From assembly GCA_964428895.1 (NCBI GenBank), contig CAYRZU010000007.1:688-64687 (forward strand): DNA of 64,000 nucleotides, read 5' to 3'. The translations under genes were made by a program, and so were the position numbers. Below the pieces are notes generated by a model. That model searched no databases. It was given only the letters and a program-made list of their open reading frames with translations, and had not been told where the DNA came from. The stretch comes from an uncultured Planctomycetaceae bacterium (GTDB lineage: Bacteria > Planctomycetota > Phycisphaerae > SM23-33). Within the stretch, counting starts at the first letter, position 1. Every line of letters begins with the position of its first letter. Below, one piece after another: positions 5,871 through 57,987 of this stretch.

Positions 5871-6476
5871 GGCTGGTGATCCTTCCATTTCTTGTGTTGT
5901 GTTGCCAAGTGTCCTATCGCCCGCGCGACGCGTCACCCACGGCCCAAAAGCCGAGAAACACGCCCCACGCGAACGCTGGAAGGTAGCCCCGCGACCGGCA
6001 CCTGTCAATCCGAACCGAACGTGTCATGACGAAAACGCCACCCCACCGTCAGCGCCACCCTCCAAGCCCATCGACTGCGTCGATGGGATCGCACCCGCAA
6101 ACCCAATGCGCGCAAAAAACGACAGACAGGCCCTATGGAGGCGATGGCCTGTCCGTCGCGACTCAAACCTTAGGTCCAGAGCCCTCACTTACCCTTACGG
6201 ACCCTCGGCGAATCAAAGAGCTACGTATGTTTGCCTGAACATCCTTGCGGCGACTTCTAGAAGTGTGCGTCTCGAATCGGTTGTCAGATATGCAACTCAA
6301 TTGATTATACGCGCGCCCTACAGGGACGACCTGAAAACCAATTACCACGGGTGAATTTTCTGCGCAAGTGAAGGCTGAATCGGCAAGAACACCTTTGTCA
6401 GACTTTGCGGCCGCATCTACAATGATCCCGAAACGCTCTGGGCGCCCCGGGCGGACAAGTCTATCAGATATCAGGG

Positions 6477-7583: not shown

Positions 7584-7605
7584 TCGAGGCTGCGGGAGTC
7601 CGCCC

Positions 7606-10179
7606 ATGAAGTTCGCGTTTCTCATCCATCCCCTCAACGCCTACACCAAGCTATTGCTGCATCTGGGGGCGGGGGGCTTCTTCGCCAAGGATCGTCAGGA
7701 ACTCGACCTGTTCGACTTCTACGCCGACCTGCACAATACCGTCCAAACGCAAGGCCGCACCGTTCAGGACGCCGCCAGCGATGACGTACGCGTGGTCGAT
7801 GAGATGGCCGAACTGGTCAGCCACAACGGCTGCCGCGCCGCCGGTCGCATCTATGAAGTCCCCATGCAGGCCACCGAGATCATCGACAACCCCCAGCAAG
7901 CCGTCGGCTACATGGAAAAGGCCGTCGACCAGGCCGCCGACTGGGGCGCCGAACTGGTGGGACTGGGCTCGATGACGGGCGTGGTCGGCAGCCAGGGCGT
8001 GTACCTGGCCAACCGCGGCACCACCGCCATCACCACCGGGAACTGCCTGACCGCCTACGCCACGCTCGAGAATCTCCGCAGCCTTAGCGAGGACGCCGGC
8101 ATCGATCTGGCCGACGAGATCGTTACCGTGGTGGGCTGCCCGGGCAGCATCGCCATGGCGCTGGCCCACGCGCTGGTCGGAAAGTGTCGCGAGCTTCACC
8201 TGGTGGCCCGGCGGTTGTCGGCCCGGTCGCAGAGCCTGGCCGAACAACTCGGCGCCAAACTCCTGCTGGATATCCCCGAGGCCCTGTCGCAATCCCGCGT
8301 GGTCCTGTCGGCCACGTCCTCGGGCGACTGCATCGACCAGGCGTGGCTGCAGCCGGGCAGCGTGGTGCTCGACGTGGCGATCCCCTCCGACGTGGTCTGG
8401 CAGCCCGAGCCGCGCCCGGACGTGCTGGTGATCTCGGCGGGCCTGGCCACCGTGCCGCAGCAGATGATCGGCGATTCCATGCTGCTGGGGTTCTACGGCG
8501 GGCTCGTGCCCTCTTGCCTGGGCGAGACCATCATCCTGGCCCTGGAGAACCGCCCGGAGAACTACTCCGTCGGCCGCGACCTGGACCCCAAGCACATCCA
8601 GGAGATCGGCCAGCTCGCCCACAAGCACGGATTCGACTTCACGCGGCTGACCAGTTTCGGTCTGCCCATCGCCGAGAACGAGTTCACGCGGTTCCGCAAA
8701 ATCGTCACCCAACACGGCGCCCGCCCCCAACGCAAGATCCCCGCTGGAACCGACGGCGCCCCTCCTGCCAACGTCTTGCCCGACATCCCCTCCCTGGCCC
8801 AGCGCGCCCGCCAACGCTACCAGCGCTACGTCAACCCGGTCTGGGCCGCCCTGGGCGGTGAGTCCGGGCTGGTCAAGACATTCGTCCGCGCCGAAGGCGC
8901 GTTCCTCTACGACGCCGCCGACCGACGCTTCCTCGACTTCGTCGCCGGCTACGGCTCGATGAATCTCGGCCACAACCATCCGGCTGTTGTCGAAGCCGTC
9001 AGCTCGGCGCTTACCCAAAAAGCGCCCGGCTTCGCCCAGACGGCCGTCAACCCCCTGACGGCTGCCCTGGCTGAGAAGCTCATCTCCATCACACCCGGCA
9101 GCCTCGAACTGGCGTTCTTCACCAACAGCGGGGCCGAATCCGTCGAAGCCGCTCTCAAGCTCGCCCGCGCCGCGACTGGCCGAACGGGCCTGCTCAGTTG
9201 TGAAGGCGGCTACCACGGCAAGACGTTCGGCGCCCTGTCCGTTACCGCCAGCCCGCATTACCAAAGGCCGTTCTCGCCGCTGCTGGCCGATACCGCGGTC
9301 GTGCCCTTTGGCGACCTGGAAACGCTCGAGCGCGCCCTGAGCACACGGCGATTCGCCGCCTTTATCGTTGAGCCCATCCAGGGCGAAGGCGGTATGAACG
9401 TCCCGCCGGCCGGATACCTGGCCGAAGCACGAAAGCTCTGCCACGACGTCGGCACGTTGCTGATCGTCGATGAAGTCCAAACCGGCCTCGGGCGAACCGG
9501 CGAGCTGTTCGCCGTCAACCACGACGGGGTCGAGCCCGACATCATGACGCTGGCCAAGAGCCTCGGCGGCGGCCTCGTCCCGCTCGGCGCCATGCTCGCC
9601 CGCCGCGACCTATGGACCAAAGCCTACGGCACGCTCGACAGCTTCGCCCTGCACACCTCCACCTTCAGCGGGGGCAGTCTGGCCTGCGCGGCCGGCCTGG
9701 CCACACTGGACGTCCTCTGCAACGACGGGCTCGCCGACAGCGCCCGCCAGCACGGCCGGCAGCTCATGGCCACCCTCACCGAACTGTGTCGGCAATCCAC
9801 CATCCTCCAGGCCGTCCGCGGACGGGGCCTCATGATTGGTCTGGAGTTCCAGCCTATCTCCAAGGCGATCGCCCATCAGTTCGAACGCATGGCCCTGGCT
9901 GCCAACGCCGAGTTTATGGTCCGAGGCCTCGACGACCTGATCCAGACGATCCCCGTTACCTACGTGATGGCCACGCTGCTCCACGAGCACGGCATCTACA
10001 CCCAATTCACGCGATCCAACCCCAACGTGCTCCGCGTTCAGCCGCCGCTGATTGTCACCGAACGCCAGGCCGATCACTTCTGCGAGGCCGTCGAGCAGGC
10101 CTGTTCCGAGTGCTTCTACGTCAGCGGCCTGGCCGAGTCCGTCCTCAGCAAATCCATCGGCGACCACCGCAACCAGTAG
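7606..10179 (+). CDS. Bifunctional fusion: N-terminal NAD(P)-binding dehydrogenase-like domain (shikimate/amino-acid dehydrogenase-like Rossmann) joined to a C-terminal class-III PLP-dependent aminotransferase
   Basis: Start at ATG 7606 (MKFAFLIHPLNAY...), with a GGGAG Shine-Dalgarno 9 nt upstream. The N-terminal half has the Rossmann motif TVVGCPGSIAMALAHAL around residue 190. The C-terminal half (from about residue 420) has class-III aminotransferase motifs: GSMNLGHNHP, the DEVQTGLGRTG box, and the PLP-lysine context MTLAKSLGGG. Total length is 857 aa. Confidence 0.75.
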   Translation: MKFAFLIHPLNAYTKLLLHLGAGGFFAKDRQELDLFDFYADLHNTVQTQGRTVQDAASDDVRVVDEMAELVSHNGCRAAGRIYEVPMQATEIIDNPQQAVGYMEKAVDQAADWGAELVGLGSMTGVVGSQGVYLANRGTTAITTGNCLTAYATLENLRSLSEDAGIDLADEIVTVVGCPGSIAMALAHALVGKCRELHLVARRLSARSQSLAEQLGAKLLLDIPEALSQSRVVLSATSSGDCIDQAWLQPGSVVLDVAIPSDVVWQPEPRPDVLVISAGLATVPQQMIGDSMLLGFYGGLVPSCLGETIILALENRPENYSVGRDLDPKHIQEIGQLAHKHGFDFTRLTSFGLPIAENEFTRFRKIVTQHGARPQRKIPAGTDGAPPANVLPDIPSLAQRARQRYQRYVNPVWAALGGESGLVKTFVRAEGAFLYDAADRRFLDFVAGYGSMNLGHNHPAVVEAVSSALTQKAPGFAQTAVNPLTAALAEKLISITPGSLELAFFTNSGAESVEAALKLARAATGRTGLLSCEGGYHGKTFGALSVTASPHYQRPFSPLLADTAVVPFGDLETLERALSTRRFAAFIVEPIQGEGGMNVPPAGYLAEARKLCHDVGTLLIVDEVQTGLGRTGELFAVNHDGVEPDIMTLAKSLGGGLVPLGAMLARRDLWTKAYGTLDSFALHTSTFSGGSLACAAGLATLDVLCNDGLADSARQHGRQLMATLTELCRQSTILQAVRGRGLMIGLEFQPISKAIAHQFERMALAANAEFMVRGLDDLIQTIPVTYVMATLLHEHGIYTQFTRSNPNVLRVQPPLIVTERQADHFCEAVEQACSECFYVSGLAESVLSKSIGDHRNQ

Positions 10180-29775: not shown

Positions 29776-31203
29776 CTAGATGGTGTGAACCACCACGGTG
29801 TTGATCGTTCCGCTCTTGCCCAGCGGGCGGCCGGAAACGACCAGGACTTTCTCGCCCGCCTTGGCCCAGCGGAGGCGGCGGATTTCCTTGCCGGCGATGG
29901 CCAGCACTTCCCGCGTGTGCTCACACGCCGGCGCCAGGCGACCCAGCACACCATAGAGCAGGCACATCTGCTGGGCGACGCGCTGCGACCGCGTCAGACC
30001 CAGAATCGGAACGGGCAGTTGCATCTTCGACAGCGCCACCGCCGTGCCGCCGGAGATTGTCAGCACGGCCACGGCCTTGACCGCGTCGTGGGCCACCAGC
30101 GACCGGACAGCCTCGGCAATCGCCAACAGATTACCAGCGTCGGAGTCGGCGTGGAGCCTCGGCCCGTACTGACGCTGGTCGCAGACCTCGGCCTGGAACG
30201 CGTCGGCCTTAGCGACCACGCGCTCCATCATCTGCACCGCTCGGGCCGGGTACTTGCCGATGGCGGTCTCCCCCGAAAGCATCACCGCATCGGCCCCATC
30301 CAATGCAGCGTTGGCCACGTCGGAGACCTCCGCGCGGGTCGGGCTGGGATGCTCGGTCATGCTCTCCAGCATCTGGGTCGCCACAATGCACACCTTGCCC
30401 GCCCGGGAGGCATGGTGGACGAGCCGTTTCTGGGCGATGGGCACTTCCGGAAGGCTCATCTCCACCCCCAAATCGCCGCGCGCAACCATAATGCCGTCGG
30501 CGGCGTCGAGGATGGCGTGGATATTCCGTAGGGCCTGGGGCTTTTCGATCTTGGCGATGATCTTGGCGTCGCTGCCGCCGGCGCGGAGGATCTTCCGAAG
30601 CTGCTTGACGTCCGCGGCGCGGCTGACGAAAGATAGCGCCACGTAGTCAACGTCCTGCTTGGCCAGCCAGCGGGCGTCGGATCGGTCCTTTTCCGTCAGG
30701 GCCGACAGCTTCAGGTTGGTCTTGGGCACATTTACGCCCTTGCCGCTAGCGAGGATGCCGCCGACCACCACCTGACACTGCAGGTTCTTGCCGGCCTCGC
30801 GGTCGACCACCTTCAACTCGATCTTGCCGTCGTCCAGCCGGATGCGATGGCCGATCCGGGCCGCATCGATCAGTTCCGGCAAGGTAGTGCTGATCTTTCG
30901 GGCCGTGCCGACAATCGCCTTTCGCTGAATCGTCAGCTCCGCGCCTTCAGCCAGCAGAGCGCTGCCGCCGGTGATCTTGCCCACGCGGATTTTCGGCCCG
31001 CATAGGTCGGCCATCACGCCCAGCGGCTCGCCGACTTCCTTGGAGACGTTTCGGACGCATTTAAGCATTCGTGCATGGTCGTCCCGGTGGCCGTGGGAGA
31101 AGTTCAGCCGAAAGACATCCGCCCCGGCCCGGACCAGCCGCCGCAACATCGGCAGTTCGCCACTGGCCGGACCCAGCGTTGAAACGATCTTCGTCCTGAT
31201 CAT
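29776..31203 (-). CDS. pyk: Pyruvate kinase
   Basis: Start at ATG 31201-31203 (MIRTKIVSTLGPAS...) with an AAGGGAG Shine-Dalgarno. Motifs present are RLNFSHG and the MVARGDLGVE region. Confidence 0.9.
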   Translation of the reverse strand: MIRTKIVSTLGPASGELPMLRRLVRAGADVFRLNFSHGHRDDHARMLKCVRNVSKEVGEPLGVMADLCGPKIRVGKITGGSALLAEGAELTIQRKAIVGTARKISTTLPELIDAARIGHRIRLDDGKIELKVVDREAGKNLQCQVVVGGILASGKGVNVPKTNLKLSALTEKDRSDARWLAKQDVDYVALSFVSRAADVKQLRKILRAGGSDAKIIAKIEKPQALRNIHAILDAADGIMVARGDLGVEMSLPEVPIAQKRLVHHASRAGKVCIVATQMLESMTEHPSPTRAEVSDVANAALDGADAVMLSGETAIGKYPARAVQMMERVVAKADAFQAEVCDQRQYGPRLHADSDAGNLLAIAEAVRSLVAHDAVKAVAVLTISGGTAVALSKMQLPVPILGLTRSQRVAQQMCLLYGVLGRLAPACEHTREVLAIAGKEIRRLRWAKAGEKVLVVSGRPLGKSGTINTVVVHTI

Positions 31204-31343
31204 CAGAGCGTGGCTCCCTTGACGGCCCGTCCGTCGGTTAGGCTTCGAAGATAGCCCCTGACGGGCAAGGGGGCAAGGCTTGCCCGTTGCAGCCGGGCGG
31301 CGGAGTCCGTATACTGACGATCTTTGCTGGGAAGGAAAAGACG

Positions 31344-31481
31344 ATGGGACGTAGACGCGACCGTAAAGATCAGCGACTGGAAAACCAGATAGCGACTCGC
31401 CGCAAGAACGCGAAGCGCAAGGAACGTGAACGCGCCCGCAAGGCGGCCAAAGCCGCCGCTGCCGCCGAAGCCGCCGCCTGA
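31344..31481 (+). CDS. Hypothetical small highly basic protein (45 aa, Arg/Lys/Ala-rich)
   Basis: ATG at 31344 is preceded by GGAAGGAAAAG. The product is MGRRRDRKDQRLENQIATRRKNAKRKERERARKAAKAAAAAEAAA. No family recognised. Confidence 0.4.
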   Translation: MGRRRDRKDQRLENQIATRRKNAKRKERERARKAAKAAAAAEAAA

Positions 31482-31561
31482 GGTCGTTCTGAATCGCCAC
31501 CAGGCCGTTGCAGCCCGCTATGGCCTGCGCTTGGTCTCGCGCGCCCATCGATAGCGGTTCT

Positions 31562-34500
31562 ATGAGGGGCTTGAAGACATCCGTCGCCGTTGCGCTGGTG
31601 TTGTCGGTCCTGGCTCTGGCGCCGACGGCGTCCGCGGCCGGCCCGGCCACTGCCGCCGATCTGGCCGACCAGCGCCAGGCGATCTGGTCGGCCGAACTCC
31701 TGGCCGCCTACGCCGCCGCCGAATCCGACCCCCCAGAGCCGTGGGACGCCGACGCCCGAGCTTTCCTGGCCAACATCGCCCGGTGGCTGGCCGCCGATGC
31801 CGATCTGCCCCGAGCTGTCCCCGCCGCCACGCTCGAAGCCGCCGGCCGGACGCTGCTCGCCAACGGCTGTGACAATCCGGCAATCTGGGGCGCCTACGGC
31901 CTGGTCCTCGCCAAGCAAGGCCTGTACGGCGAGGCCGCGGCGATTTTGGCCGAGGCCATTGCCGCGACCGACGACCTCGCCGCCGCCGACCTGCTGCGCG
32001 GCCTTCTGGCCGGGGCCCAGTCCGAAGCAATGAAGCGGCTGGGTGAGCCCGACCTGGCCACCCACTACATCCGGCAGGCCTCCAGCCATTTCGCCCGAGC
32101 GCTCGGCCAGACCTACGCCCGCGACGACCACCAACGCGCCGTGCTGCAGCTGATCCGCCGCCATTGGTTCGACGCCTTGCCGGTCGACGGAAAATGGATA
32201 TTCCTCCAGCGTTGTGAGGATCGGAACGATACGCCGGTGTGGACGTTTCGAATGTTAGGCGGGCTCTACCTAGCGGCCAACGCCGACGTCGTCATCGACC
32301 AGAGCCTTGCCCCCGCCGGCGGGGGGGAGGTCGCCGCCCAGCCCGGGTGGCAAGCCATGAGCGTCTTCGCAGCCGCCTTGGACGACCGGGCCGACCGACC
32401 CGAGGCCGCCGCCGAAATCCTCCGCCTGGTGGCCCATCGGCTGGTCCTGAGCTCCGTTGATCCGGGAGCGATCTTCACACGAGGCGCCGCAGCCCAACGG
32501 GATTACCGGCCGATCTATGCCAATTTCGCCGCCGCCCGTGAGAGCCTATCCCTCTGGCGCGACTACGACAAGACTGCCGATGCCCTGAGCATCTTCGCCG
32601 CCTATTGCCTCCGGTCCGGCTACAATTCCGCGGCTCCCACGCTGACCTACCCGCTCATTCTCCAAGCGGGACAGTTGCGGGGTCGCGGCGCCCGCGCCAG
32701 TCTGAACCAACCGGCCAACCAGGACAGCATGGACCGACTTACAGCCGGCTACGCCGCCGAGGACCTCGACGCCCCCGTGGCGGCCCGGGTGCGGCTGATC
32801 GCCGCCGCCGCTGCCTTCGCCCGGGGGCAGTGGCCCCAAGCTCGCGCCCAGTTGGACGCGATACCCCATCTGACCGACCACTCGGAGATGATCGACCAGA
32901 TCCTCGGCGTCTTCAACATGCCGGCCGCGGCTGTGGTGGGCCGTATCTATGCCGAGACCTCCGATCACGCCGACGCCCTGGCCGACGCCCGGCGACAGGT
33001 CCGCGCCGAGGAGTATGACCAGGCTGTGGCTTCGCTTCACGCGATCGCCGCCCAGAACCACGACAACGGCTGGGTGATGGCCTATCTGCGGCATGCCGTT
33101 CGCCATGTCCTGATTACCCGGGATCTCAAGGCCGGCGGCTGGGTCTCCATCGCCCCCTTCCCCGATCAGCGGTACTGGCGGACCGACCGCGGACGAGCCT
33201 GGGTCGATTCGACCGGTGATTGGGTCGCCGATCCCAAGGCCGGGCCCACCGCCGCCGTTTGCACCACGCCGTTCGGTCCGCGCGTGGAGTTGCGAGCGGA
33301 TGTGGACTTGGGTCCCGATCATGCCGGCGCCACCGCACTTCTGTTCGGATACGAGGGCTGGTTGAGTCGCTGGCACGCCGTGGTGCTCGACGGCAAGACG
33401 CAATCCCTCGACGTTCGCCGATGTTGGCCGGCCCCCAGGCCCAACACACTCACCGCCGGGCTCGAGGCTGTCAGCCGAGTCAACCTTCTTCTCGATCGGG
33501 GGGAGATTACCCTCTACGTCAACGACAAGGCCGTCGTGTCCGGCTGGCGACCGGGCCCCTGGCGGACCGACCTGCTTGCACTCATGGGCTTGGCCGTCGG
33601 ATCGGCAGGAGCCGACCAACCACTCGCCCGGGCCCGCAACGTCCAAGTCCGTCGATTGCCCGATGACGCCACCGGTGACAATCGCGACGCCACCAGTGAC
33701 CCCGTCGCCCCCATCGACCCGACCTTTGCCGGCTACGACGACCTGCCGACCACCGACCAGCAGAACCGGACCGTCGTGGCCGGCGCAGCCGACGGCGATG
33801 AGGCCAGCGATCACTGCCCCGGGCCCGGTTGGCTGGCTGGGTTGCGAATCGCCATCACGTCCGATTCCACCGGCCCGGGGGTTGAAGCCGTTGAACCGGT
33901 CTACCAAACGCCCATCGGCCTACGCAACGGGCGACGGTTCGGGCAAGGCCGAGCCCCTCTCGTCGACGTGCTCGCCCGAGACGGCTTCGCGCTCGGCGGG
34001 CTGGTGGTTCACGGCCACGACGGCGTGACCGGCCTGCAGGCAATCTTCCTGCGAATCAACGCCGACGGGACATTGGATGCCGGGACCCGCTACCACAGCC
34101 AGCTATACGGCCGCCCGTCCGATGCACCCCAGCAACTGGGCGTTGACGGCCGGGCCGTCATGGGCATCGTCGGCCGCGTCGGCCCAGACCTGCGAGCGAT
34201 CGGACTGATCACCACCGACGCGCCCAACATCGCCGGGCAGACCATCCGCCCGCCGCTGGGCCTCGGGCTAGTGGCGCCGGCCAAGCCGAATCTGGTCCCC
34301 ATCGGTGACACCGTGACGGAGCTCAACGGCCTCTACTATCGCCATGTCGACCTGCCCGTCAGCTTGGCCGAGGCCCAGCGACGATGTGAAGCGCTCGGCG
34401 GGCGACTGGCCATCGCCGACAGTCGCGCCCTCAGCAACTTCCTGTTCGGCCTGGCCGACGGCCAGCCCTGCTGGGTGGGCGTAACCCGAACGGCTGCCGG

Positions 34501-35575
34501 CGCCTGGCAAGGTGTGGACGGCCGACCTGTCGCCCTGGACTACTGGGTCGGCGACCCGCCCGCCGAGCCGGCCCCCGGCGCCGCAGCCGCGATTGGCTTC
34601 GATGGCGAGGCCGCCTGGGCCCTCACCAGCCCTCACGCGCGGCGGAGCTTCGTCTGCCAATGGGATGCCGATCCGCGCGTCGACCCCGAGCCCGTACCGG
34701 CCGGGCCGGTCGTCGAAATGGTCGGCCATGACGTTATCTACGACGGCCATCGATATCGCGCGTTCGATCAACCAACCACCTGGCCGGAAGCCATGGCCAT
34801 ATGTCGCCAACTCGGCGGCGACCTAGTTACCATCGACAGCGAGGCCGAGAACCAAGCGGTCACCTTGCTGGTCGGCGACCGTCGCTATTTCATCGGCGCG
34901 ACCGACGAAGCCGAGGAAGGCTACTGGCAGTGGGTGGACGGCCGACCGGTCGAATACGCCGCCTGGGCCGACGGCGAGCCCAACAACATGGGCGGACAGC
35001 AGCACGTGGCCCTGATCGGTCACGTCGCGCCCCACGCCTGGGACGATCTCAATCCCGCCGAGCCGATCGGCTTTATCTGCGAATGGTCGGACGCGTCCGC
35101 CCAGCCCCCGGATGCACCCGGCCCGCTGCCCGTCGACACCACGGGTGCTTTCAAATTCGGCGAACACTGGTACAAGGTTTTCTACGAGGCCGTCACCTGG
35201 AACGAAGCTCGCGCCGCCTGCGATCGCCTGGGCGGGCGGTTGACCCGTGTCGAAGACGAACCCACGCGCGAATTGGTCCGGATGCTGGCGCGGCCAGACC
35301 GACCCTTGTGGATCGGCGCGTCTCGACCCGACAAGGTCCTCCCCTGGGTCTGGACCGATGGCACCGTGATCGAAAGCTGGGAGACGCCCAATGGGACCGA
35401 CGAGCTCATCGCCGCCGTCGTCGGTTTGGCCAGAGACGGCCGTTGGCAGATCGTCGTCGGGTCCAAGAGGCACGGCTCCGTCTGCCAGTGGAACACCGAC
35501 CCCAGCGCAACCACCCGGCCCGACCCGGCCCCGGAGAGCACCCATGACCCCGCCGAACAGCCCCCAACAGATTGA
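31562..35575 (+). CDS. Large secreted protein with three tandem C-terminal C-type lectin-like domains
   Basis: Signal peptide MRGLKTSVAVALVLSVLALAPTASAAG. The three C-type lectin-like domains contain CEALGGRLA...WVGV...CQW, CRQLGGDLV...EPNNMGGQQHVALI...WDD...CEW, and CDRLGGRLT...CQW. The central domain has the EPN/WDD Ca-mannose-type motifs. The N-terminal 900 aa is Ala/Leu-rich and unassigned. Confidence 0.75.
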   Translation: MRGLKTSVAVALVLSVLALAPTASAAGPATAADLADQRQAIWSAELLAAYAAAESDPPEPWDADARAFLANIARWLAADADLPRAVPAATLEAAGRTLLANGCDNPAIWGAYGLVLAKQGLYGEAAAILAEAIAATDDLAAADLLRGLLAGAQSEAMKRLGEPDLATHYIRQASSHFARALGQTYARDDHQRAVLQLIRRHWFDALPVDGKWIFLQRCEDRNDTPVWTFRMLGGLYLAANADVVIDQSLAPAGGGEVAAQPGWQAMSVFAAALDDRADRPEAAAEILRLVAHRLVLSSVDPGAIFTRGAAAQRDYRPIYANFAAARESLSLWRDYDKTADALSIFAAYCLRSGYNSAAPTLTYPLILQAGQLRGRGARASLNQPANQDSMDRLTAGYAAEDLDAPVAARVRLIAAAAAFARGQWPQARAQLDAIPHLTDHSEMIDQILGVFNMPAAAVVGRIYAETSDHADALADARRQVRAEEYDQAVASLHAIAAQNHDNGWVMAYLRHAVRHVLITRDLKAGGWVSIAPFPDQRYWRTDRGRAWVDSTGDWVADPKAGPTAAVCTTPFGPRVELRADVDLGPDHAGATALLFGYEGWLSRWHAVVLDGKTQSLDVRRCWPAPRPNTLTAGLEAVSRVNLLLDRGEITLYVNDKAVVSGWRPGPWRTDLLALMGLAVGSAGADQPLARARNVQVRRLPDDATGDNRDATSDPVAPIDPTFAGYDDLPTTDQQNRTVVAGAADGDEASDHCPGPGWLAGLRIAITSDSTGPGVEAVEPVYQTPIGLRNGRRFGQGRAPLVDVLARDGFALGGLVVHGHDGVTGLQAIFLRINADGTLDAGTRYHSQLYGRPSDAPQQLGVDGRAVMGIVGRVGPDLRAIGLITTDAPNIAGQTIRPPLGLGLVAPAKPNLVPIGDTVTELNGLYYRHVDLPVSLAEAQRRCEALGGRLAIADSRALSNFLFGLADGQPCWVGVTRTAAGAWQGVDGRPVALDYWVGDPPAEPAPGAAAAIGFDGEAAWALTSPHARRSFVCQWDADPRVDPEPVPAGPVVEMVGHDVIYDGHRYRAFDQPTTWPEAMAICRQLGGDLVTIDSEAENQAVTLLVGDRRYFIGATDEAEEGYWQWVDGRPVEYAAWADGEPNNMGGQQHVALIGHVAPHAWDDLNPAEPIGFICEWSDASAQPPDAPGPLPVDTTGAFKFGEHWYKVFYEAVTWNEARAACDRLGGRLTRVEDEPTRELVRMLARPDRPLWIGASRPDKVLPWVWTDGTVIESWETPNGTDELIAAVVGLARDGRWQIVVGSKRHGSVCQWNTDPSATTRPDPAPESTHDPAEQPPTD

Positions 35576-52208: not shown

Positions 52209-53192
52209 GTGCTTGCCAACTACTTCCTCGGATTGCTCGATTATCAGGCGCTGGTCTTGATGGGCGTTGCCGTCTTCGTCATGGCCGCCGGATGCGCCGC
52301 CACCGTGGTCTTGGCGCGCCGGGCCTACCTGGCCGTCCGCCGCACGCCCGCCCGCCTCAGTCACCGTTGGCTGCGGTGGACCGAGCGCGCCATCATTGCC
52401 GTTGCCGCGCTCGGCCTGGTCTGCGCCGCTTACGGATGGCTGATCGAGCCCTATTGGCTCGACGTGACCGAAACCACCGTAACAACCCCTAAGCTCCCGG
52501 CCGGAGCCGAACCCATCCGCATCGTCCACATCAGTGACTTGCACTGCGACCCCAAGAAACGATTGGAGGATGAGGTGGTCGAAGCGGTTCGCCGGCTTCG
52601 CCCGGACGTCATCTGCTTCACCGGCGACGCCCTCAATAGCTCCGGCGGCATCGAGAATTTTCGGGCCTGCATGACCAGCGTGGCCCAGATCGCCCCGACC
52701 TATGCCGTCCACGGCAACTGGGAGAGTCACGAGCGCCTCCGCTATCTCGACCTTTATGGCGGCACGGGCGTCCGTGTCCTCAATGACCGACCGACGCGTC
52801 TGAGGGTGCGTGGCCAGCCGTTGAACGTTGTCGGCATCCGCCATCAATCGCGCTTGCAGGCGGGGTTGGTCAAGGCCATGACCGGCGTCGACACGAGTGT
52901 GCCTACTATCCTCCTCTGCCACGTCCCCAGTGTGGCCCTCAATCTGCCCGGGACCGGCATCGACCTGGCCCTGTCCGGCCACACCCATGGCGGACAGATT
53001 GCCCTACCGTTCTACGGCGCCCTGGTCACCCTGACCTCCACCGGCAAGCGTTTCGAGCGCGGCCTCTACAATCACCAAGACACCCATCTCTACGTCAGCC
53101 GCGGCATCGGTATGGAAGGCGGCCCGGCCCCACGCGTGCGCTTCTTTGCGCGGCCGGAGGTCACGCTGATCGAACTCTCGCCGGCCCCTTAG
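52209..53192 (+). CDS. Membrane-anchored metallophosphoesterase (calcineurin-like)
   Basis: Motifs VHISDLHCD, GDALN, HGNWE and GHTHGGQ. Two N-terminal transmembrane helices. The start is uncertain: GTG 52209 has a GACGGAG Shine-Dalgarno, while the track ORF begins at 52044. Confidence 0.7.
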   Translation: MLANYFLGLLDYQALVLMGVAVFVMAAGCAATVVLARRAYLAVRRTPARLSHRWLRWTERAIIAVAALGLVCAAYGWLIEPYWLDVTETTVTTPKLPAGAEPIRIVHISDLHCDPKKRLEDEVVEAVRRLRPDVICFTGDALNSSGGIENFRACMTSVAQIAPTYAVHGNWESHERLRYLDLYGGTGVRVLNDRPTRLRVRGQPLNVVGIRHQSRLQAGLVKAMTGVDTSVPTILLCHVPSVALNLPGTGIDLALSGHTHGGQIALPFYGALVTLTSTGKRFERGLYNHQDTHLYVSRGIGMEGGPAPRVRFFARPEVTLIELSPAP

Positions 53193-54418
53193 CGCCGCGT
53201 CTTCTTGGCCTTCTTGACCGTCTTCTTCTTGCCGGCGGCCAGCAGTTTCTTCAGGTCGGCGTTGGCCGCTTTGCGCATGCCTTGGCCCTTGCCGGTCGAG
53301 AGGCGCCGCTCCAGCGAGCCCATCAGGCTCTCCATCTCGGCGGCGTTGACGGGCAAGGAAATGGTCTTGGTCTTGTAACCGGCCAGGTGCATCGCGTTGG
53401 ACAGCTCCAGCTCGTTGAGCGCCTGGTCGCCGTCGGCAAAGTCGAACGGCTTCTTACCGGTCAGCACCCACTGAACGAACCCGCGCGTAACCTCCAGATG
53501 CCCGCCCGAACGGCCCTTCGGCTTGACCGGCTTCCACGTGATCCCTTGCTCGGCGCCGCCAGCCATGCCGTCCCTGGAAGCGAAAATGTGCTTGCTGACG
53601 GGCGTCTTGAGTTTGCCCAGCTTGATGCCCTCGTCGCCGATTACGATCGTGCCCTTGTCGCCGCAGATCATGAACTCCTCGTAGCCGGGCTCTTCGGCCG
53701 TGGTCGCGTAGATGTAGCCGACCTTGCCGCTGCCGTAATCCAGCAGGAAGTTCGCGCAATCCTCCACCTCGATGTCGTGGCAGCGCGTCGACAGCAGCCC
53801 CAGCACCTTCTTGGGCATGCCCGCGATCCATTGATATAGATCCAGGTGGTGCGGGGCCTGGTTGATCAGCACGCCGCCTCCCTCACCGTCCCACGTGCCC
53901 CGCCAGGCGCCGGAATCGTAGTAGGCCTGCGTGCGGAACCAATTGGAGCAGATCAGTTGGGCCCGAAAAACTTCGCCGATGGCGCCGGAATCAATCAAGC
54001 CTTTAACCGTCTGCATGTCCGCCCGGGCCCGGTGGTGGAGCATGACTCCCAGCTTGACCTTGCGCTTCTTGCACTCCTTGATCATCGCACGGGCGTGGCC
54101 GACCGTGCTGGATAGCGGCTTCTCGCACATCACGTGCAGACCGGCCCGGGCGGCGCGGATCGTCAGCGGCGCGTGCCAGTAGTGCGGCGTGGCCACGATG
54201 ACGGCATCGCACAGGCCGGAGTCGATCATCTCCTCACCGGTAGCGAACCAAGGCACGCTGTATTTCTGGCCGAACTGCTTGGCTTTCTTGGCGTCGATGT
54301 CGGCCAACGCCGTGAGGCTCAGTCGCCGGTCGGTGGTTGTGGAGATCATCTCCACGTGGCCGCTGCCCATCATGCCCACGCCGATAACGCCGAAACGAAT
54401 GTGCTTGAGCTTCGCCAT
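53189..54418 (-). CDS. Gfo/Idh/MocA-family NAD(P)-dependent oxidoreductase with a lysine-rich C-terminal tail
   Basis: N-terminal RFGVIGVGMMGSGH Rossmann motif. The C-terminal 35 aa are MRKAANADLKKLLAAGKKKTVKKAKKTRR. Confidence 0.8.
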   Translation of the reverse strand: MAKLKHIRFGVIGVGMMGSGHVEMISTTTDRRLSLTALADIDAKKAKQFGQKYSVPWFATGEEMIDSGLCDAVIVATPHYWHAPLTIRAARAGLHVMCEKPLSSTVGHARAMIKECKKRKVKLGVMLHHRARADMQTVKGLIDSGAIGEVFRAQLICSNWFRTQAYYDSGAWRGTWDGEGGGVLINQAPHHLDLYQWIAGMPKKVLGLLSTRCHDIEVEDCANFLLDYGSGKVGYIYATTAEEPGYEEFMICGDKGTIVIGDEGIKLGKLKTPVSKHIFASRDGMAGGAEQGITWKPVKPKGRSGGHLEVTRGFVQWVLTGKKPFDFADGDQALNELELSNAMHLAGYKTKTISLPVNAAEMESLMGSLERRLSTGKGQGMRKAANADLKKLLAAGKKKTVKKAKKTRR

Positions 54419-54532
54419 GAGTCGCTCCTGTGTCGGAAGGTTGCTTCCGATTGGGTTTCGATTAGGCGGGTCAGTCTAGGTCGGCCCTGTGGCGATTGCA
54501 AGGTGAGCGGGCCGGTCGTAAGATGCCTGACC

Positions 54533-55717
54533 ATGGAACACATTTGGGTCAAGATCGAGGGGCTGACCAGGCCGGCCGACGCCGTCAAGGTCGCGGATCT
54601 CGGCGCCGACGCGATCGGCCTAGTCTTCGCCGACTCACCGCGACAGGTCACGATCCCGCAAGCCAAGGCCATCGTCGACGCCCTGCCGATGTTCATGCAA
54701 AGCGTGGCCCTGTTCGTCAACAGCGAGGTCGCCGAGATCAATCGCGTGGTCGAAGCCGTCCGACCCACCCACGTGCAACTGCACGGCGACGAGCCGCCCG
54801 AGATCATCCGCTGGATCGACGCCCGCTGCATGAAGGCCTTCCGCATCCGGTCGACCAACTGGGTCGACGAGGTCCAGGCCTGGCTAGATGGCCTGCTGGA
54901 CATCAACGACGTCGCGGCCATCGTCCTCGATGCCTACGACTCGGAGAAGCCCGGCGGCACGGGCAAACGGTTCAACTGGCAGTGGGTGGTCGACGCCCGC
55001 AAGGCCGGCAAGCTCGAAGGCTGGCCCCCCATCATCCTGGCCGGCGGCCTGACCGCCGACTGCGTAGCCGGCGCCATCGACGCCGTTCGCCCCTGGGGCG
55101 TAGATGTCTCCAGCGGGGTGGAACGGTTCCCGGCCGTCAAAGACTTCCGCAAGATCCACGCCTTCATCGACGCCGCCGGCAGCACGCAATTCTCAAACGG
55201 CGCCACCTCCCTGTGTCGCTGGATCCGCAACGGCCGACGGGCCAAGCTGCTGAACTTCCTGGCCGCCCACCCGGATATGAAGGCCGAGCGTCCCTGGGGG
55301 CCGTCCGCGCTGGACCTGGCCGTGCGGTCCAAGCGACGCTACACGCTCGTGCCGACCTTGCTAACCGCCGGTGTCTGCATCAACCAGCGCGACGACGGCG
55401 AGATGACCGCCCTGATGAGCGCCGCCGCCGACAGCGACGCCCGCATGGTCGAGTTGCTGCTCGCCCACGGCGCCGACGTCAACGCCTGCAACGACATGTC
55501 CGAGACCGCCTTCAGCTACGCCGCCGCCAACAACGCCCTCGACGCCGCTAAGCTCCTTCAGGCCCACGGCGCTGAAATCAACCGCCCCGATACCCACGGC
55601 GCCAGCCCCCTCGACTGGGCCAAATACCACGCCTCCGAAGAAATGTACGACTGGATGCGATCCATCCACTGCGTCCACCGAGCCGAAAAGCCCGGCTGGA
55701 TCGGCCGACGTCCCTAA
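54533..55717 (+). CDS. trpF: Phosphoribosylanthranilate isomerase (TrpF) fused to C-terminal ankyrin repeats
   Basis: MEHIWVKIEGLTRPADAVKVADLGADAIGLVF...VQLHGDE...ILAGGL...PWGVDVSSGVE is full-length TrpF (about 210 aa). About 3 ankyrin repeats follow (TALMSAAADSDARMVELLLAHGADVNA..., TAFSYAAANNALDAAKLLQAHGAEIN..., ASPLDWA). Confidence 0.8.
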   Translation: MEHIWVKIEGLTRPADAVKVADLGADAIGLVFADSPRQVTIPQAKAIVDALPMFMQSVALFVNSEVAEINRVVEAVRPTHVQLHGDEPPEIIRWIDARCMKAFRIRSTNWVDEVQAWLDGLLDINDVAAIVLDAYDSEKPGGTGKRFNWQWVVDARKAGKLEGWPPIILAGGLTADCVAGAIDAVRPWGVDVSSGVERFPAVKDFRKIHAFIDAAGSTQFSNGATSLCRWIRNGRRAKLLNFLAAHPDMKAERPWGPSALDLAVRSKRRYTLVPTLLTAGVCINQRDDGEMTALMSAAADSDARMVELLLAHGADVNACNDMSETAFSYAAANNALDAAKLLQAHGAEINRPDTHGASPLDWAKYHASEEMYDWMRSIHCVHRAEKPGWIGRRP

Positions 55718-55755
55718 CACCCCTCTGGCAAGCAAGGCCTTCAACTGTGACTGCA

Positions 55756-57987
55756 ATGACCTTCGATTCGATCGAGCAAGCCCTCGCCCGACCGACCAAC
55801 GACCTGTTCTGGGTGGAGTACGCGAACGGCAAGGCCCTCTGCGGGCATGCCGACAGCTTCTACGCGCCGGAGATCCCCGATAAGTATCTGGTCTACGACG
55901 TGGGCAACAACAAGGTGTTGGCCAACGTCGAACTGAACGGCACGGTTCAGCGGTTCAGCTTCTACCGCGGGTGCTATCCGTCGGATTCGTTGGCGCCCGG
56001 CATCTGGTGGTTTAAGGACCATAGCGAGTTCGGGCCGTTCCGGTTCCATCTGCGGCTGGGCGACGAGACGTTCGATCTGGCTGAAACAGACTGGCCGCTA
56101 CGGACGGACCTGCTGGGCAACATCCTGCCAAGGACAACGCTGACCGGGCCGGGCGTGGCGGTCACGCTGATTTCGTATGCCCCGATCTCGGCCGACGGCG
56201 CCGAACGGCCCCGCGCCCTCATCTACGGCCTGATGCTTCGGAACACGTCGGATGAGCCCATCACCGGGGCCGTCATCCCGCCCAAGAGTCAATCCAGCGA
56301 CGAAGCTGGCGCCCCGGTCCACGAGACCTTCACCGCCGTTCTCGACGGCGTCGCCTGCCACGACGGCGAAGTCCCCTTTGAGCTCATGCCTGGCGAAACG
56401 CTGTGGACGCCGGCTGTCATCACGCCCGTACCGGGCCAGGTCAACGTCGCCGATGTTGCCAAACGTACCGCCCTGGACTGGCTGAACGAAACGCTCGGCT
56501 ACTTCCACAACATGCTGGGCGAGCTGTCCATGCCCGCCGACCCATTCCCGGCGGCGTTCTTCGAACGAAGCATGCTGGAGTGCTTCCTGGCCATCGCCAT
56601 GGACGAGTCCGGCGAAATGGTCGGCGCGAACTGGTCGGGCTTCCCCTCCACCATGCAGATATGGCAGAAGGACCTCTACCATAGCTGCGCCCCTCTGGGG
56701 GTCCACGAACCGGAACTGATGCAGCAGATCATCCTGTGGTTCCTGTACCGGTCGGTCCGCCACAAAGGCGACAAGATCTACGGCGGCTATCATCTGGACG
56801 GCGGCGTGAGCTTTTCGCTGACCAACACGCTGACGCCGGTGGTCCAGGCCGGCGCGTATTACGAAGCCACCGGCAACCGAGCCTTCTTCGAAGCCCATCC
56901 GGAGGTGATGGCCCGAAGCTGTGAGTTGCTGGAGGCGGTGCTGGAAACGCGTGAGGGGGAGCCGGTCCTGTTCCCATCGATGTGGCTATCGGACGGTCCC
57001 AGCCGCGGCGACTACAACACCGGCTCGAACGTCGTGGCGTGGCTAGCCTTCAACTTGACGGCCGTCCTCGTTGATGACATCGCCGGCGACGCGGCGCTGG
57101 CTGCCCGCTATCGCGACATCGCCGACAGGATCCACGCCGACATCGACACATGGTGCATCACCGACGGCCCGCTCGGCCCGCAATACACCGAAGGCGCCTT
57201 CAAAGACGGCACGCACGAAACGCACCACGACGGCGAGGAGACCGACACCACCCTCATGCCCCACTACGGTTACTGCGCCTATGACAACACCGCCCATCAA
57301 AACCACGCTCGCGTGGCGATGACCGAAGACAACACGTGGTACCGCCAATGCAGTCGCGGCATTAAGGACTCCACCTGGCTGGAAGACCCCGACCCGCCAA
57401 TCGAAGCGACCTACCCCGGCTACATGACGGGCCTGGCCGGTGTGGCCAACGCCGAGGAAATGTCCGGCCCCGACGGCGCGATGACCATTATCCGCCAACG
57501 CACGGACGTGGACGGATCGATCTGGTGGTGGCCGTTCTGTGACGGCCACATCAGCCGCGCGTATGAGATTCATGGCGGCGTCGTCGGCAAGAGCGGCTGG
57601 GCCGCCGGCGTCTACGCCTGCCACTTCGTCTCCCAAATCCTGGGCCTAAGCTACCACGGGCCATCGAGGACGCTGCGCTGGCGGCCGTTCAGCCCGACCA
57701 GCAACTTCACCTGGACCGATTGTCGCCTCGGCGCGGGCCGATTCAGCGCCGACTTCACCCGAGACGACACCACCACCCGCTGCAGCATCACCAACCACAA
57801 CGACCACGACGTAACGGCGGAACTGGAGATCATTCTCCCGGACGGCGCCACGGCCGCGTCCATCCAACTCGACGGCCAATCGTTCGACGGCTCGACCGAG
57901 GCCGGCACGTTCTTCGAGGCGACCACCGTCAAGCTGTCCGTGGGCGTCCCGGCCGGCACGGGATGCACCATCGAAGCCATTTGCTGA
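55756..57987 (+). CDS. Hypothetical 743-aa protein, possibly an (alpha/alpha)6-barrel glycoside-hydrolase-like enzyme
   Basis: A large soluble protein with no signal peptide. The central region ([11 protein letters not shown]...[13 protein letters not shown]...) is reminiscent of six-hairpin glycosidases. The fold assignment is low-confidence. Confidence 0.4.

What the first reader, a model, noticed from the sequence alone, without database searches (positions are those of the whole stretch)
54533..55717. Phosphoribosylanthranilate isomerase (TrpF) fused to ankyrin repeats
A full-length TrpF (with KIEG in place of the usual KICG) is followed, in frame, by about 180 aa containing at least three ankyrin repeats (TALMSAAADSDARMVELLLAHGADVNA / TAFSYAAANNALDAAKLLQAHGAEIN / ASPLDWA). 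TrpF is usually free-standing or fused to TrpC. An ankyrin protein-interaction module on a tryptophan-pathway enzyme suggests recruitment into a complex or to a cellular location. I do not know of a described TrpF-ANK architecture.
Basis: seen in the sequence. Interest (0 to 1): 0.5.

Follow-up and report, generated by a model that had tools for sequence, protein, structure and literature searches.

The report
TrpF enzyme fused to ankyrin repeats
A small group of uncultured Phycisphaerae bacteria carries its ordinary tryptophan-pathway enzyme TrpF with a complete five-repeat ankyrin protein fused to its end; the fusion is real and conserved but rare, a close relative lacks it, and its purpose is unknown.

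Summary
Window 54533-55717 (+) is one uninterrupted 394-codon ORF. Residues 6-213 match Pfam PRAI (E 3.5e-39) and residues 224-378 form a five-repeat ANK solenoid (Ank_2 E 2.6e-24). The identical protein sits on 14 independently assembled contigs, so a frameshift or chimera is excluded. About ten fused orthologues (52-80% identity) occur in one bootstrap-supported Phycisphaerae clade. All lie at the conserved housekeeping trpF position, divergent from a GFO/IDH/MocA gene. Both halves are under purifying selection (dN/dS 0.14-0.32 for TrpF, 0.28-0.50 for ANK). The 'KIEG' Glu-for-Cys change has nothing to do with the fusion: 118 of the 120 nearest TrpFs have it. The ANK module is homologous over its whole length to stand-alone ~165-aa Phycisphaerae ANK proteins. 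A close relative lacks exactly the ANK-coding segment. AlphaFold2 with a deep alignment gives pLDDT 93 and pTM 0.90, which predicts rigid packing of ANK on the barrel. The canonical ANK ligand positions are the least conserved class. Best reading: an active TrpF with a docked accessory ANK domain. The recruitment idea is untested. One member is already in UniProt (A0A0F9UIP9), but no paper describing the fusion was found. This is a new variant of a known kind, of modest interest.

The parts
54419..54532 (.). 114-bp divergent intergenic region between the GFO/IDH/MocA oxidoreductase gene (53189-54418, minus strand) and trpF-ANK; presumed promoter region
   Evidence: ORF map. The same divergent GFO_IDH_MocA | trpF arrangement occurs in fused loci and non-fused loci. 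No sigma-70-like consensus was found.
54533..55717 (+). Complete trpF-ANK ORF: 394 codons plus a TAA stop
   Evidence: The identical product is on 14 contigs. Fused orthologues are P0001-P0008 and L048.
54548..55171 (+). TrpF (PRAI) (beta/alpha)8-barrel domain, residues 6-213
   Evidence: Pfam PF00697 E 3.5e-39. NCBIfam NF002298 scores 207 bits. Foldseek TM 0.87 to 1nsj. It keeps 59 of the 62 residues that are at least 97% conserved in 112 non-fused relatives.
54557..54559 (+). Codon of Glu9, at the position of the general base Cys7 of T. maritima TrpF (KIEG instead of KICG)
   Evidence: Alignment to 1lbm. Motif census: KIEG 118, KIDG 1, KIER 1.
54929..54931 (+). Codon of Asp133, aligned with the general acid Asp126 of T. 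maritima TrpF
   Evidence: alignment. Invariant in all 121 sequences.
55178..55201 (+). Linker, residues 216-223, between helix alpha8 and the first ANK helix
   Evidence: Least conserved segment (mean pairwise identity 0.25-0.31). pLDDT below 50 in the shallow-alignment model but about 86-93 in the deep-alignment model.
55202..55666 (+). Five-repeat ANK solenoid, residues 224-378 (R1 224-253 N-cap, R2 254-286, R3 287-319, R4 320-352, R5 353-378 C-cap)
   Evidence: Pfam Ank_2, Ank, Ank_3, Ank_4 and Ank_5. Five helix pairs at pLDDT above 90. TM about 0.84 to DARPins. Homologous end to end with stand-alone 161-165-aa ANK proteins P0126-P0129. dN/dS 0.28-0.50.
55667..55714 (+). Conserved C-terminal tail SIHCVHRAEKPGWIGRRP, residues 379-394
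   Evidence: As conserved as the repeats (0.70 in the 7-member subclade). The motif ..IGC.H is shared with the stand-alone relatives. Its role is unknown.

Best explanation
This is the lineage's ordinary housekeeping trpF gene (phosphoribosylanthranilate isomerase, PRA to CdRP). In the ancestor of a small clade of uncultured Phycisphaerae it captured a complete small five-repeat ankyrin protein at its 3' end. The TrpF barrel keeps its catalytic equipment, so it most likely still performs the Amadori rearrangement. Glu9 takes the general-base position, as in all Phycisphaerae TrpFs, and Asp133 is the general acid; the phosphate-binding GG and SSG loops are present. The ANK solenoid leaves helix alpha8. 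From known TIM-barrel topology, alpha8 ends at the non-catalytic back face of the barrel. The solenoid is predicted to be packed rigidly against the barrel. I infer that it acts as a docked accessory domain that stabilises the enzyme or alters its quaternary state or surface, and may offer a secondary binding surface. I do not think it takes part in catalysis or gates the active site. It is an accessory and is not essential, because a close relative has deleted exactly this segment. Shown: the fusion, its conservation, its positional orthology, purifying selection, the origin of the module, and the deletion variant. Inferred: retained enzyme activity, docking on the back face, and a structural rather than recruiting role.
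For: The ORF is intact and has been assembled 14 times. Domains and folds are confirmed. About ten fused orthologues sit in one clade (49/50 bootstraps; the window's 7-member subclade 50/50). The divergent GFO_IDH_MocA | trpF synteny is shared with non-fused relatives, so the gene is the positional orthologue of housekeeping trpF. No second trpF or ANK lies in the 64-kb window. In the window's protein 59 of 62 clade-invariant TrpF residues are retained (57-60 across the fused set), including E9, D133, G171-G172 and S194-G195. dN/dS is 0.14-0.32 for TrpF and 0.28-0.50 for ANK in the closer pairs. The module aligns end to end with stand-alone 161-165-aa Phycisphaerae ANK proteins and shares non-consensus motifs with them. 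AlphaFold2 with 102 rows gives pLDDT 93.4 and pTM 0.90, all five models exceed 90, and the linker is confident. The linker plus repeats 1-2 carry a net charge of +6 to +13 in all eight fused proteins tested, against -3 to +4 in the first 50 residues of stand-alone relatives, and the barrel is mostly acidic. The window's subclade has four polar-to-hydrophobic changes on the back face, among them R5W, Q94W and R124I, against 0-2 in control clades. The canonical ANK ligand positions are the least conserved class.
Against: The docking claim rests on one AlphaFold2 run whose coordinates I could not inspect. The first, shallow-alignment run gave pTM 0.52. The ANK half of the alignment has only about 10 rows. 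The back-face enrichment of clade-specific substitutions (15 of 25, P = 0.003) is not specific, because non-fused control clades show similar enrichment. The linker sequence is poorly conserved. The P0007/L048 subclade lacks the hydrophobic back-face changes. Whether the genomes hold a second trpF or priA could not be checked. Enzyme activity with Glu in place of Cys is inferred, not shown. One fused lineage (P0005) has KIER with Gly10 changed to Arg.
Confidence: 0.45

Rival explanations
1. Recruitment adaptor. The ANK module binds another protein, for example the pathway neighbours TrpD or TrpC, or a localisation factor. This would tether TrpF into a complex and help hand over the labile intermediate PRA.
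For: ANK repeats are protein-binding modules in general (established knowledge). The module derives from a stand-alone ANK family that presumably binds something. It is under purifying selection. Arg286, at canonical binding position 33 of repeat 2, is invariant in fused and stand-alone proteins. trpF is not clustered with other trp genes here, so any physical coupling would need protein contacts.
Against: The canonical binding positions (2, 3, 5, 13, 14, 33) are the least conserved class among the fused proteins. No neighbouring gene is conserved across the fused loci. Stand-alone relatives are not next to trp genes. A close relative deleted the module cleanly. A pTM of 0.90 predicts the module packed on TrpF itself.
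Confidence: 0.25
2. Passenger fusion. A small ANK gene was joined to trpF by chance. The two halves work independently: the ANK keeps its ancestral function, unrelated to tryptophan, and the fusion only co-expresses them. It persists because it does no harm.
For: The distribution is very narrow: one family among 1.84 billion cluster representatives, and one of 185,579 GTDB species representatives. The module has been lost secondarily in the closest relatives of P0007. The ANK half is under more relaxed constraint than the TrpF half. The linker is variable. The P0007/L048 subclade shows no interface-like changes in TrpF.
Against: The fusion has been retained with an open frame across lineages with dS of about 0.5-1.2. 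Repeats 1-2 have a fusion-specific basic charge that stand-alone relatives lack. A pTM of 0.90 predicts a defined interface.
Confidence: 0.22
3. Neofunctionalised TrpF. The barrel, with Glu instead of Cys as the base, acts on another aminoaldose substrate or moonlights, as Chlamydia TrpF does in folate synthesis. The ANK domain would serve that new role.
For: TrpF is a known promiscuous scaffold. Chlamydia TrpF, from another PVC-superphylum lineage, converts the GTP cyclohydrolase II product to dihydroneopterin monophosphate while keeping PRA isomerase activity (PMC4161248). One fused lineage has KIER. The NCBIfam equivalog score falls just below its cut-off (207 against 215).
Against: KIEG is shared by 118 of the 120 nearest TrpFs irrespective of fusion. 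The gene occupies the conserved trpF locus. The TrpF half has the lower dN/dS. Deviations from clade-invariant residues are few and mostly conservative.
Confidence: 0.06
4. Artefact. A sequencing frameshift, an assembly chimera or a read-through joins two separate genes.
For: None found. Gene callers do sometimes split the fusion: in L048 only a 124-aa ANK product was called.
Against: The identical ORF is on 14 contigs from different samples and assemblers. Orthologous fused ORFs at 52-80% identity occur in other assemblies. The L048 ORF is in fact open across both halves.
Confidence: 0.01

Closest known systems
Monofunctional TrpF (phosphoribosylanthranilate isomerase), e.g. Thermotoga maritima TrpF (PDB 1nsj, 1lbm)
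   Same: Same (beta/alpha)8 fold (TM 0.87, 35% identity). Same length of catalytic domain. The general acid Asp and the phosphate-binding loops are conserved.
   Different: Glu replaces the general-base Cys (KIEG against KICG). A 176-residue ANK extension follows alpha8. T. maritima TrpF is a homodimer joined through the N-terminal barrel faces (my own knowledge, Hennig et al. 1997; not checked here), which is the face where the ANK module should emerge.
Non-fused Phycisphaerae/Planctomycetota TrpFs (P0009-P0120, e.g. 'MAG: phosphoribosylanthranilate isomerase [Phycisphaerae bacterium]')
   Same: 52-61% identity over the TrpF half. Same KIEG motif. Same divergent GFO_IDH_MocA | trpF gene arrangement.
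   Different: They end about 5-15 residues after alpha8 and have no ANK module or remnant downstream.
Bifunctional Trp-pathway fusions: TrpC-TrpF (E. coli, PDB 1pii; NF006945) and TrpF-TrpB (NF010376)
   Same: TrpF joined covalently to a second domain. For TrpF-TrpB the partner also follows the C-terminus of TrpF.
   Different: In those fusions the partner is the next pathway enzyme. PMC4921024 lists TrpC/TrpF among fusions of neighbouring pathway genes that share an unstable metabolite, CdRP. Here the partner is a non-enzymatic repeat domain with no similarity to TrpC or TrpB.
Stand-alone small ANK proteins of Phycisphaerae (P0126-P0129, 161-165 aa; e.g. MGA2501921.1, Tepidisphaeraceae)
   Same: They align over the whole module, N-cap to C-terminal signature, at 38-48% identity in that alignment (49-58% in local BLASTP). 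They share the non-consensus motifs PDQRD, ETAFSYAC, SPLDWA and ASK.FYDWL..IGC.H.
   Different: They are free-standing, mostly acidic, and not adjacent to trp genes. The fused module has basic repeats 1-2.
Enzyme-ANK combinations elsewhere: eukaryotic kidney-type glutaminase with C-terminal ANK repeats; Pseudomonas aeruginosa AnkB, needed for full KatB catalase activity (my own knowledge, not checked here)
   Same: An ANK module accompanies a metabolic or detoxifying enzyme as a non-catalytic accessory.
   Different: Different enzymes and lineages with no homology beyond the ANK fold. AnkB is a separate protein, not a fusion.

Membership tests
TrpF / PRAI (PF00697, EC 5.3.1.24) | Match to the family HMM above the curated threshold | tested here: met
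   Pfam PRAI scores 135 bits against a cut-off of 22.7 and covers profile positions 1-192 of 193.
TrpF / PRAI (PF00697, EC 5.3.1.24) | NCBIfam equivalog naming cut-off | tested here: inconclusive
   The best model, NF002298, scores 207 bits against a cut-off of 215, just below it, with full-length coverage. This is a naming threshold of one sub-model and not a family-defining trait.
TrpF / PRAI (PF00697, EC 5.3.1.24) | (beta/alpha)8-barrel fold superposable on solved TrpFs | tested here: met
   Foldseek gives TM 0.87 and rmsd 2.8 A to 1nsj; six other TrpF entries (1dl3, 1lbm, 1v5x, 4aaj, 4wui, 1pii) fill the remaining top-8 ranks. Eight strand-helix units appear in the model.
TrpF / PRAI (PF00697, EC 5.3.1.24) | General acid Asp at the end of beta6 (Asp126 in T. 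maritima) | tested here: met
   Asp133 aligns with Asp126 and is invariant in 121 of 121 sequences.
TrpF / PRAI (PF00697, EC 5.3.1.24) | Canonical general base Cys at the end of beta1 (KICG; Cys7 in T. maritima) | tested here: not met
   Glu9 occupies this position. The same holds for all 120 nearest homologues (E in 119, D in 1), so it is a clade-wide substitution. A carboxylate can act as a base, as Asp does in the related HisA and PriA (my own knowledge). Cys is canonical for the characterised enzymes, but I do not treat it as excluding membership of the family.
TrpF / PRAI (PF00697, EC 5.3.1.24) | Phosphate-binding loops (GG after beta7; S/A-S-G after beta8) | tested here: met
   A170-G171-G172 and V192-S193-S194-G195 are conserved.
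TrpF / PRAI (PF00697, EC 5.3.1.24) | PRA isomerase activity; sole trpF of the genome | not testable with these tools
   Only positional orthology and purifying selection support this. Complete genomes could not be searched.
Ankyrin repeat domain (PF12796 / PF00023) | Match to ANK HMMs above the curated threshold | tested here: met
   Ank_2 86 bits (cut-off 27.3), Ank 45.6 (21.1), Ank_5 52.9 (27), Ank_4 41.7 (22.7), Ank_3 33.7 (22.3).
Ankyrin repeat domain (PF12796 / PF00023) | Stacked ~33-residue helix-turn-helix units forming a solenoid | tested here: met
   Five helix pairs at pLDDT above 90. TM about 0.84 to five-repeat DARPins.
Ankyrin repeat domain (PF12796 / PF00023) | Consensus TPLH tetrapeptide at the start of helix 1 | tested here: inconclusive
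   It is degenerate here: SALD (R2), TALM (R3), TAFS (R4), SPLD (R5). Such degeneracy is common in bacterial ANK proteins (my own knowledge).
Ankyrin repeat domain (PF12796 / PF00023) | Binds a protein partner through the concave groove and finger tips | not testable with these tools
   Indirect only. The canonical binding positions are the least conserved class (0.57, against 0.62 for other positions and 0.67 for framework positions). Arg286 is invariant.
Bifunctional Trp-pathway fusion proteins (TrpCF, TrpF-TrpB) | The second domain is another tryptophan-pathway enzyme | tested here: not met
   The C-terminal half matches only ANK families. The NF006945 and NF010376 matches cover only the TrpF part.
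Anti-phage defence ANK proteins (PADLOC) | Match beyond the ANK region, or defence genes nearby | tested here: not met
   PDC-M72A and 'Ankyrin' match only residues 222-369, which is ANK-to-ANK similarity. The three neighbouring genes tested have no PADLOC hit.

The most novel reading that the evidence does not exclude
The ANK module is a built-in scaffold that assembles a tryptophan metabolon. It would bind TrpD and/or TrpC so that the unstable intermediates PRA and CdRP are passed on directly, a non-covalent counterpart of the TrpC-TrpF fusion. The stand-alone ~165-aa ANK relatives in other Phycisphaerae would do the same job in trans. This would be a Rosetta-stone link between a bacterial ankyrin family and amino-acid biosynthesis.
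Probability: 0.1. Interest if true: 0.6.

Novelty: new variant of a known kind. Interest (0 to 1): 0.3.

Why it matters
TrpF is one of the best-studied TIM-barrel enzymes and a model for enzyme evolution and gene fusion. The fusions described for it join it to neighbouring pathway enzymes. A conserved fusion to a non-enzymatic repeat domain is an unusual natural experiment in adding a protein-binding or structural module to a core biosynthetic enzyme. This case comes with two useful comparisons: a natural deletion variant and free-standing relatives of the module. If the ANK domain turns out to stabilise the barrel or to recruit pathway partners, it would give a rare functional assignment to a bacterial ankyrin protein outside host-pathogen effectors. 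The clade-wide replacement of the catalytic Cys by Glu bears on the TrpF mechanism independently of the fusion. The phenomenon is limited to a handful of uncultured lineages and appears dispensable, so its general importance is probably modest.

Tried and rejected
1. The GTDB scan with the 9-row ANK alignment failed because no stretch was conserved enough. It was repeated with 5 rows.
2. The Biopython bootstrap timed out. It was redone with a vectorised distance.
3. I asked whether non-fused relatives have an ANK gene or remnant downstream of trpF. They do not.
4. I asked whether the stand-alone ANK relatives sit next to trp genes. They do not in the two contexts sampled.
5. The '124-aa ANK protein' P0124 looked like a split version of the fusion. 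This was rejected: the ORF is open across both halves, so it is a truncated gene call.
6. Back-face enrichment of fused-clade-specific substitutions looked significant (P = 0.003). Non-fused control clades show the same bias, so I do not use it as interface evidence. Only the polar-to-hydrophobic subset is mildly distinctive.
7. A joint alignment with the stand-alone ANKs (A5) misaligned them and was discarded in favour of A6.
8. One script translated L048 out of frame. This was corrected.
9. The AFDB (afdb50) architecture census was unavailable. Model coordinates are not exposed, so the predicted interface could not be mapped.
10. The promoter and terminator scan found nothing.
11. PADLOC gave only ANK-to-ANK similarity.
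12. Literature searches for TrpF plus ankyrin, for the Cys7 general base, and for ANK in Phycisphaerae found nothing relevant.
13. The ANK-only homologue search listed no protein longer than about 331 aa, so it could not reveal the module on other large proteins.
Full report
OBSERVATION. Window 54533-55717 (+) is a single open reading frame of 394 codons ending in TAA, with no internal stop or frameshift. Pfam places PRAI (PF00697) on residues 6-213 (135 bits, E 3.5e-39). It places Ank_2, Ank, Ank_3, Ank_4 and Ank_5 on roughly residues 262-353, all above their gathering scores. NCBIfam's best TrpF equivalog scores 207 bits, just under its naming cut-off of 215. An alignment to T. maritima TrpF (1lbm) puts Glu9 opposite the general base Cys7 and Asp133 opposite the general acid Asp126. 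AlphaFold2 models show eight strand-helix units followed by five helix-hairpin units (224-245, 259-278, 293-311, 326-344, 359-377) at pLDDT above 90. Foldseek matches the N-terminal half to TrpF structures (TM 0.87 to 1nsj) and the C-terminal half to five-repeat DARPins (TM about 0.84). The exact 394-aa protein is encoded on 14 contigs from several ENA, JGI and Logan samples.

DISTRIBUTION. A search of 5.8 billion proteins found eight other fused proteins (P0001-P0008, 52-80% identity). After them come hundreds of ordinary 220-230-aa TrpFs from Phycisphaerae and Planctomycetota MAGs, at about 52-61% identity over the TrpF half. A tenth fused member was hidden in L048 (GCA_054868905.1). There the gene call is a 124-aa 'ankyrin protein', but the ORF 5152-6375 is open across both halves. 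P0005 is UniProt A0A0F9UIP9 / KKN61111.1 / HDZ44756.1, from the LCGC14 marine-sediment metagenome and Phycisphaerae MAGs, and it recurs in five assemblies. Only one of the 185,579 GTDB species representatives carries the module, the Phycisphaerae bacterium HyVt-337. Among 129 fetched loci, only this lineage has a TrpF domain next to the ANK match. I also ran an exhaustive HMMER scan of 1.84 billion cluster representatives with the junction segment (residues 150-300). It found a single representative spanning both parts, P0002, which belongs to the same family. Four other suggestive hits were inspected and are not TrpF-ANK. That scan lists only the best 150 hits, so distant independent fusions cannot be fully excluded. 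No paper in the searchable library describes the fusion.

THE FUSED GENE IS THE HOUSEKEEPING trpF. In the window the gene order is LeuRS, metallophosphoesterase, GFO/IDH/MocA (minus strand), trpF-ANK (plus strand), a 746-aa unknown, AdoHcyase, RR-GAF, RR-HTH, FlgM, MnmG. The same backbone surrounds the fused genes in L001-L003, L009 and L048. The divergent GFO_IDH_MocA | trpF pair, with LeuRS upstream in L004, also surrounds non-fused trpF genes. The window holds no second trpF, no other ANK gene and no other trp gene. The fused TrpF domains keep 57-60 of the 62 positions that are at least 97% conserved in 112 non-fused relatives. The changes in the window's protein are conservative (G59A, V60L, A193S). 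KIEG is not linked to the fusion: 118 of the 120 nearest homologues have KIEG, one has KIDG, and one (P0005) has KIER.

EVOLUTION. A neighbour-joining tree of the TrpF domain groups the window with P0001-P0006 (50/50 bootstraps). It groups P0007 (fused) with P0012 and P0009 (both non-fused) (50/50), and all ten together (49/50). The ANK halves of the two subclades are homologous and joined at the same point. One gain followed by loss is therefore the simplest history. The loss is visible in the DNA. L008 (P0007) and L006 (P0012) are collinear at 83% identity up to the codons for ...AARAA at the end of TrpF. They are collinear again, at 94% identity, from the start of the downstream gene. Between these points L006 has about 20 bp where L008 has the ~530-bp ANK segment. 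Nei-Gojobori dN/dS in the closer pairs is 0.14-0.32 for TrpF and 0.28-0.50 for ANK. Both halves are under constraint, the ANK half less so. The module aligns from its N-terminal cap helix to its C-terminal signature with free-standing 161-165-aa ANK proteins of Tepidisphaeraceae and other Phycisphaerae (P0126-P0129). They share non-consensus motifs (PDQRD, ETAFSYAC, SPLDWA, ASK.FYDWL..IGC.H). Those genes are not next to trp genes in the two contexts sampled. The simplest origin is capture of a whole small ANK gene.

HOW IT MAY WORK. With only nine rows, AlphaFold2 gave pTM 0.52 and a poorly modelled barrel. With 102 rows (fused proteins plus non-fused TrpFs) it gave mean pLDDT 93.4 and pTM 0.90. 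All five models exceeded 90, and the linker was confident. For a protein of 218 + 176 residues, such a pTM implies a defined inter-domain packing. I could not inspect the coordinates. From TIM-barrel topology (established knowledge), helix alpha8 ends at the N-terminal, non-catalytic face of the barrel. With an eight-residue linker, the ANK repeats 1-2 should therefore sit on that back face and leave the catalytic face free. Two weak observations agree with this. First, the linker plus repeats 1-2 carry a net charge of +6 to +13 in all eight fused proteins tested. The first 50 residues of the stand-alone relatives carry -3 to +4, and most TrpF barrels are acidic. Second, the window's subclade has four polar-to-hydrophobic replacements on the back face, among them R5W, Q94W and R124I, at positions well conserved in non-fused TrpFs. 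I initially found that fused-clade-specific substitutions are enriched on the back face (15 of 25, P = 0.003). Non-fused control clades show similar enrichment, so that statistic is not evidence for an interface. Only the hydrophobic subset (4, against 0-2 in controls) is distinctive. The P0007/L048 subclade, in which the ANK has been lost by some members, lacks these changes. The canonical ANK ligand-binding positions (2, 3, 5, 13, 14, 33 of each repeat) are the least conserved class among the fused proteins: 0.57, against 0.62 for other positions and 0.67 for framework positions. No neighbouring gene is conserved across the fused loci. These points argue against a strongly conserved external partner bound in the usual groove. 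Arg286 (position 33 of repeat 2) is invariant, and the post-ANK tail (379-394) is as conserved as the repeats.

VERDICT ON MECHANISM. I consider it well supported that this is an active, housekeeping TrpF carrying a conserved accessory ANK domain. It is moderately supported that the fusion arose once from a stand-alone ANK gene and was later lost in some lineages. My preferred reading of the role (confidence about 0.45) is a docked structural accessory on the non-catalytic face that affects stability, solubility or quaternary state. T. maritima TrpF dimerises through that face (my own knowledge, not checked here). The rivals are a recruitment adaptor (0.25), an independent passenger (0.22) and a repurposed TrpF (0.06). 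The last is prompted by Chlamydia TrpF, which moonlights in folate synthesis (PMC4161248). An anti-phage role has no support.

COMPARISON AND NOVELTY. The closest known entities are monofunctional TrpF, the TrpC-TrpF and TrpF-TrpB fusions, and the stand-alone Phycisphaerae ANK proteins. The protein meets the HMM, fold, acid-residue and phosphate-loop criteria for TrpF. It lacks the canonical Cys base, as does its entire clade. It meets the HMM and fold criteria for ANK. It is not a member of the bifunctional Trp-enzyme fusions, because the second domain is not a pathway enzyme. The architecture is already deposited in public databases, auto-named 'phosphoribosylanthranilate isomerase' or 'hypothetical protein', and appears undescribed. 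I rate it a new variant of a known kind. Interest is 0.3. It is a tidy natural experiment with built-in controls, namely the deletion variant and the free-standing module. But it is confined to a few uncultured lineages, appears dispensable, and has no demonstrated function.

Noticed in passing
window 54557-54559 (Glu9); P0001-P0120: The catalytic general-base Cys of TrpF (KICG) is replaced by Glu in 119 of the 120 nearest homologues, and by Asp in one. All named ones are from Phycisphaerae or Planctomycetota MAGs. This is a clade-wide thiol-to-carboxylate swap in a textbook active site, and I found no paper on it.
   Followed up: partly
L001-L003, L010, L050 (P0005 / A0A0F9UIP9), codon 10: One fused lineage has KIER: the otherwise invariant Gly after the catalytic residue is Arg. 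It also has the most deviations (5) from clade-invariant TrpF residues. The change is seen in five independent assemblies, so it is real. Its effect on activity is unknown.
   Followed up: partly
L048 5152-6375 (GCA_054868905.1, JBTYBN010000023.1): An intact TrpF-ANK ORF is represented in the gene table only by a 124-aa 'ankyrin repeat domain-containing protein' (P0124), with about 1 kb left uncalled upstream. This is a truncated gene call that hides the fusion. P0121 and P0122 (135 and 124 aa, on contigs shorter than 1 kb) are probably similar fragments.
   Followed up: yes
window 55667-55714 (residues 379-394): The tail after the last ANK helix (SIHCVHRAEKPGWIGRRP) is as conserved as the repeats (0.70 pairwise identity in the subclade). 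Its ..IGC.H core is shared with the stand-alone ANK relatives. Some members have HC..H....GHC, but the Cys/His pattern is not invariant. Its function is unexplained.
   Followed up: partly
window 55202-55396 (linker plus ANK repeats 1-2): Net charge is +6 to +13 in all eight fused proteins tested, against -3 to +4 in the first 50 residues of the stand-alone ANK relatives. This is a fusion-specific basic patch next to a mostly acidic TrpF barrel.
   Followed up: partly
window 55747-57987 (+): A 746-aa ORF starts 30 bp after trpF-ANK and has no Pfam, NCBIfam or PADLOC match. An 81%-identical homologue lies downstream in L047, separated there by another gene. It is not a conserved neighbour of the fusion in the other loci.
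   Followed up: partly
window 7546-10179 (+): An 877-aa protein in which a class-III aminotransferase domain (446-852) is preceded by about 440 residues carrying only a weak Shikimate_DH-type NAD-binding hit (187-283). This is an unusually long N-terminal extension or fusion.
   Followed up: no
window 31508-35575 (+): A 1355-aa protein with two C-type lectin domains (Lectin_C, E 1.6e-33) and no other Pfam match. C-type lectin is a eukaryote-typical domain, here in a bacterial giant protein.
   Followed up: no
window 29779-31650 (-): A pyruvate kinase whose barrel domain starts at residue 152, so about 150 N-terminal residues have no match.
   Followed up: no
P0125 (241 aa, JGI): A relative of the ANK module in which the last two repeats plus the C-terminal signature (…ASPEFREWLVGIGG…) occur twice in tandem.
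   Followed up: no
L008 1467-1529 and L006 886-948: In the fused locus L008 the stop codon of trpF-ANK overlaps (ATGAATGA) a start codon that is homologous to the start of the downstream gene in L006. After about 60 bp the two loci diverge, and no gene was called there in L008. This points to a local rearrangement beside the ANK indel.
   Followed up: partly
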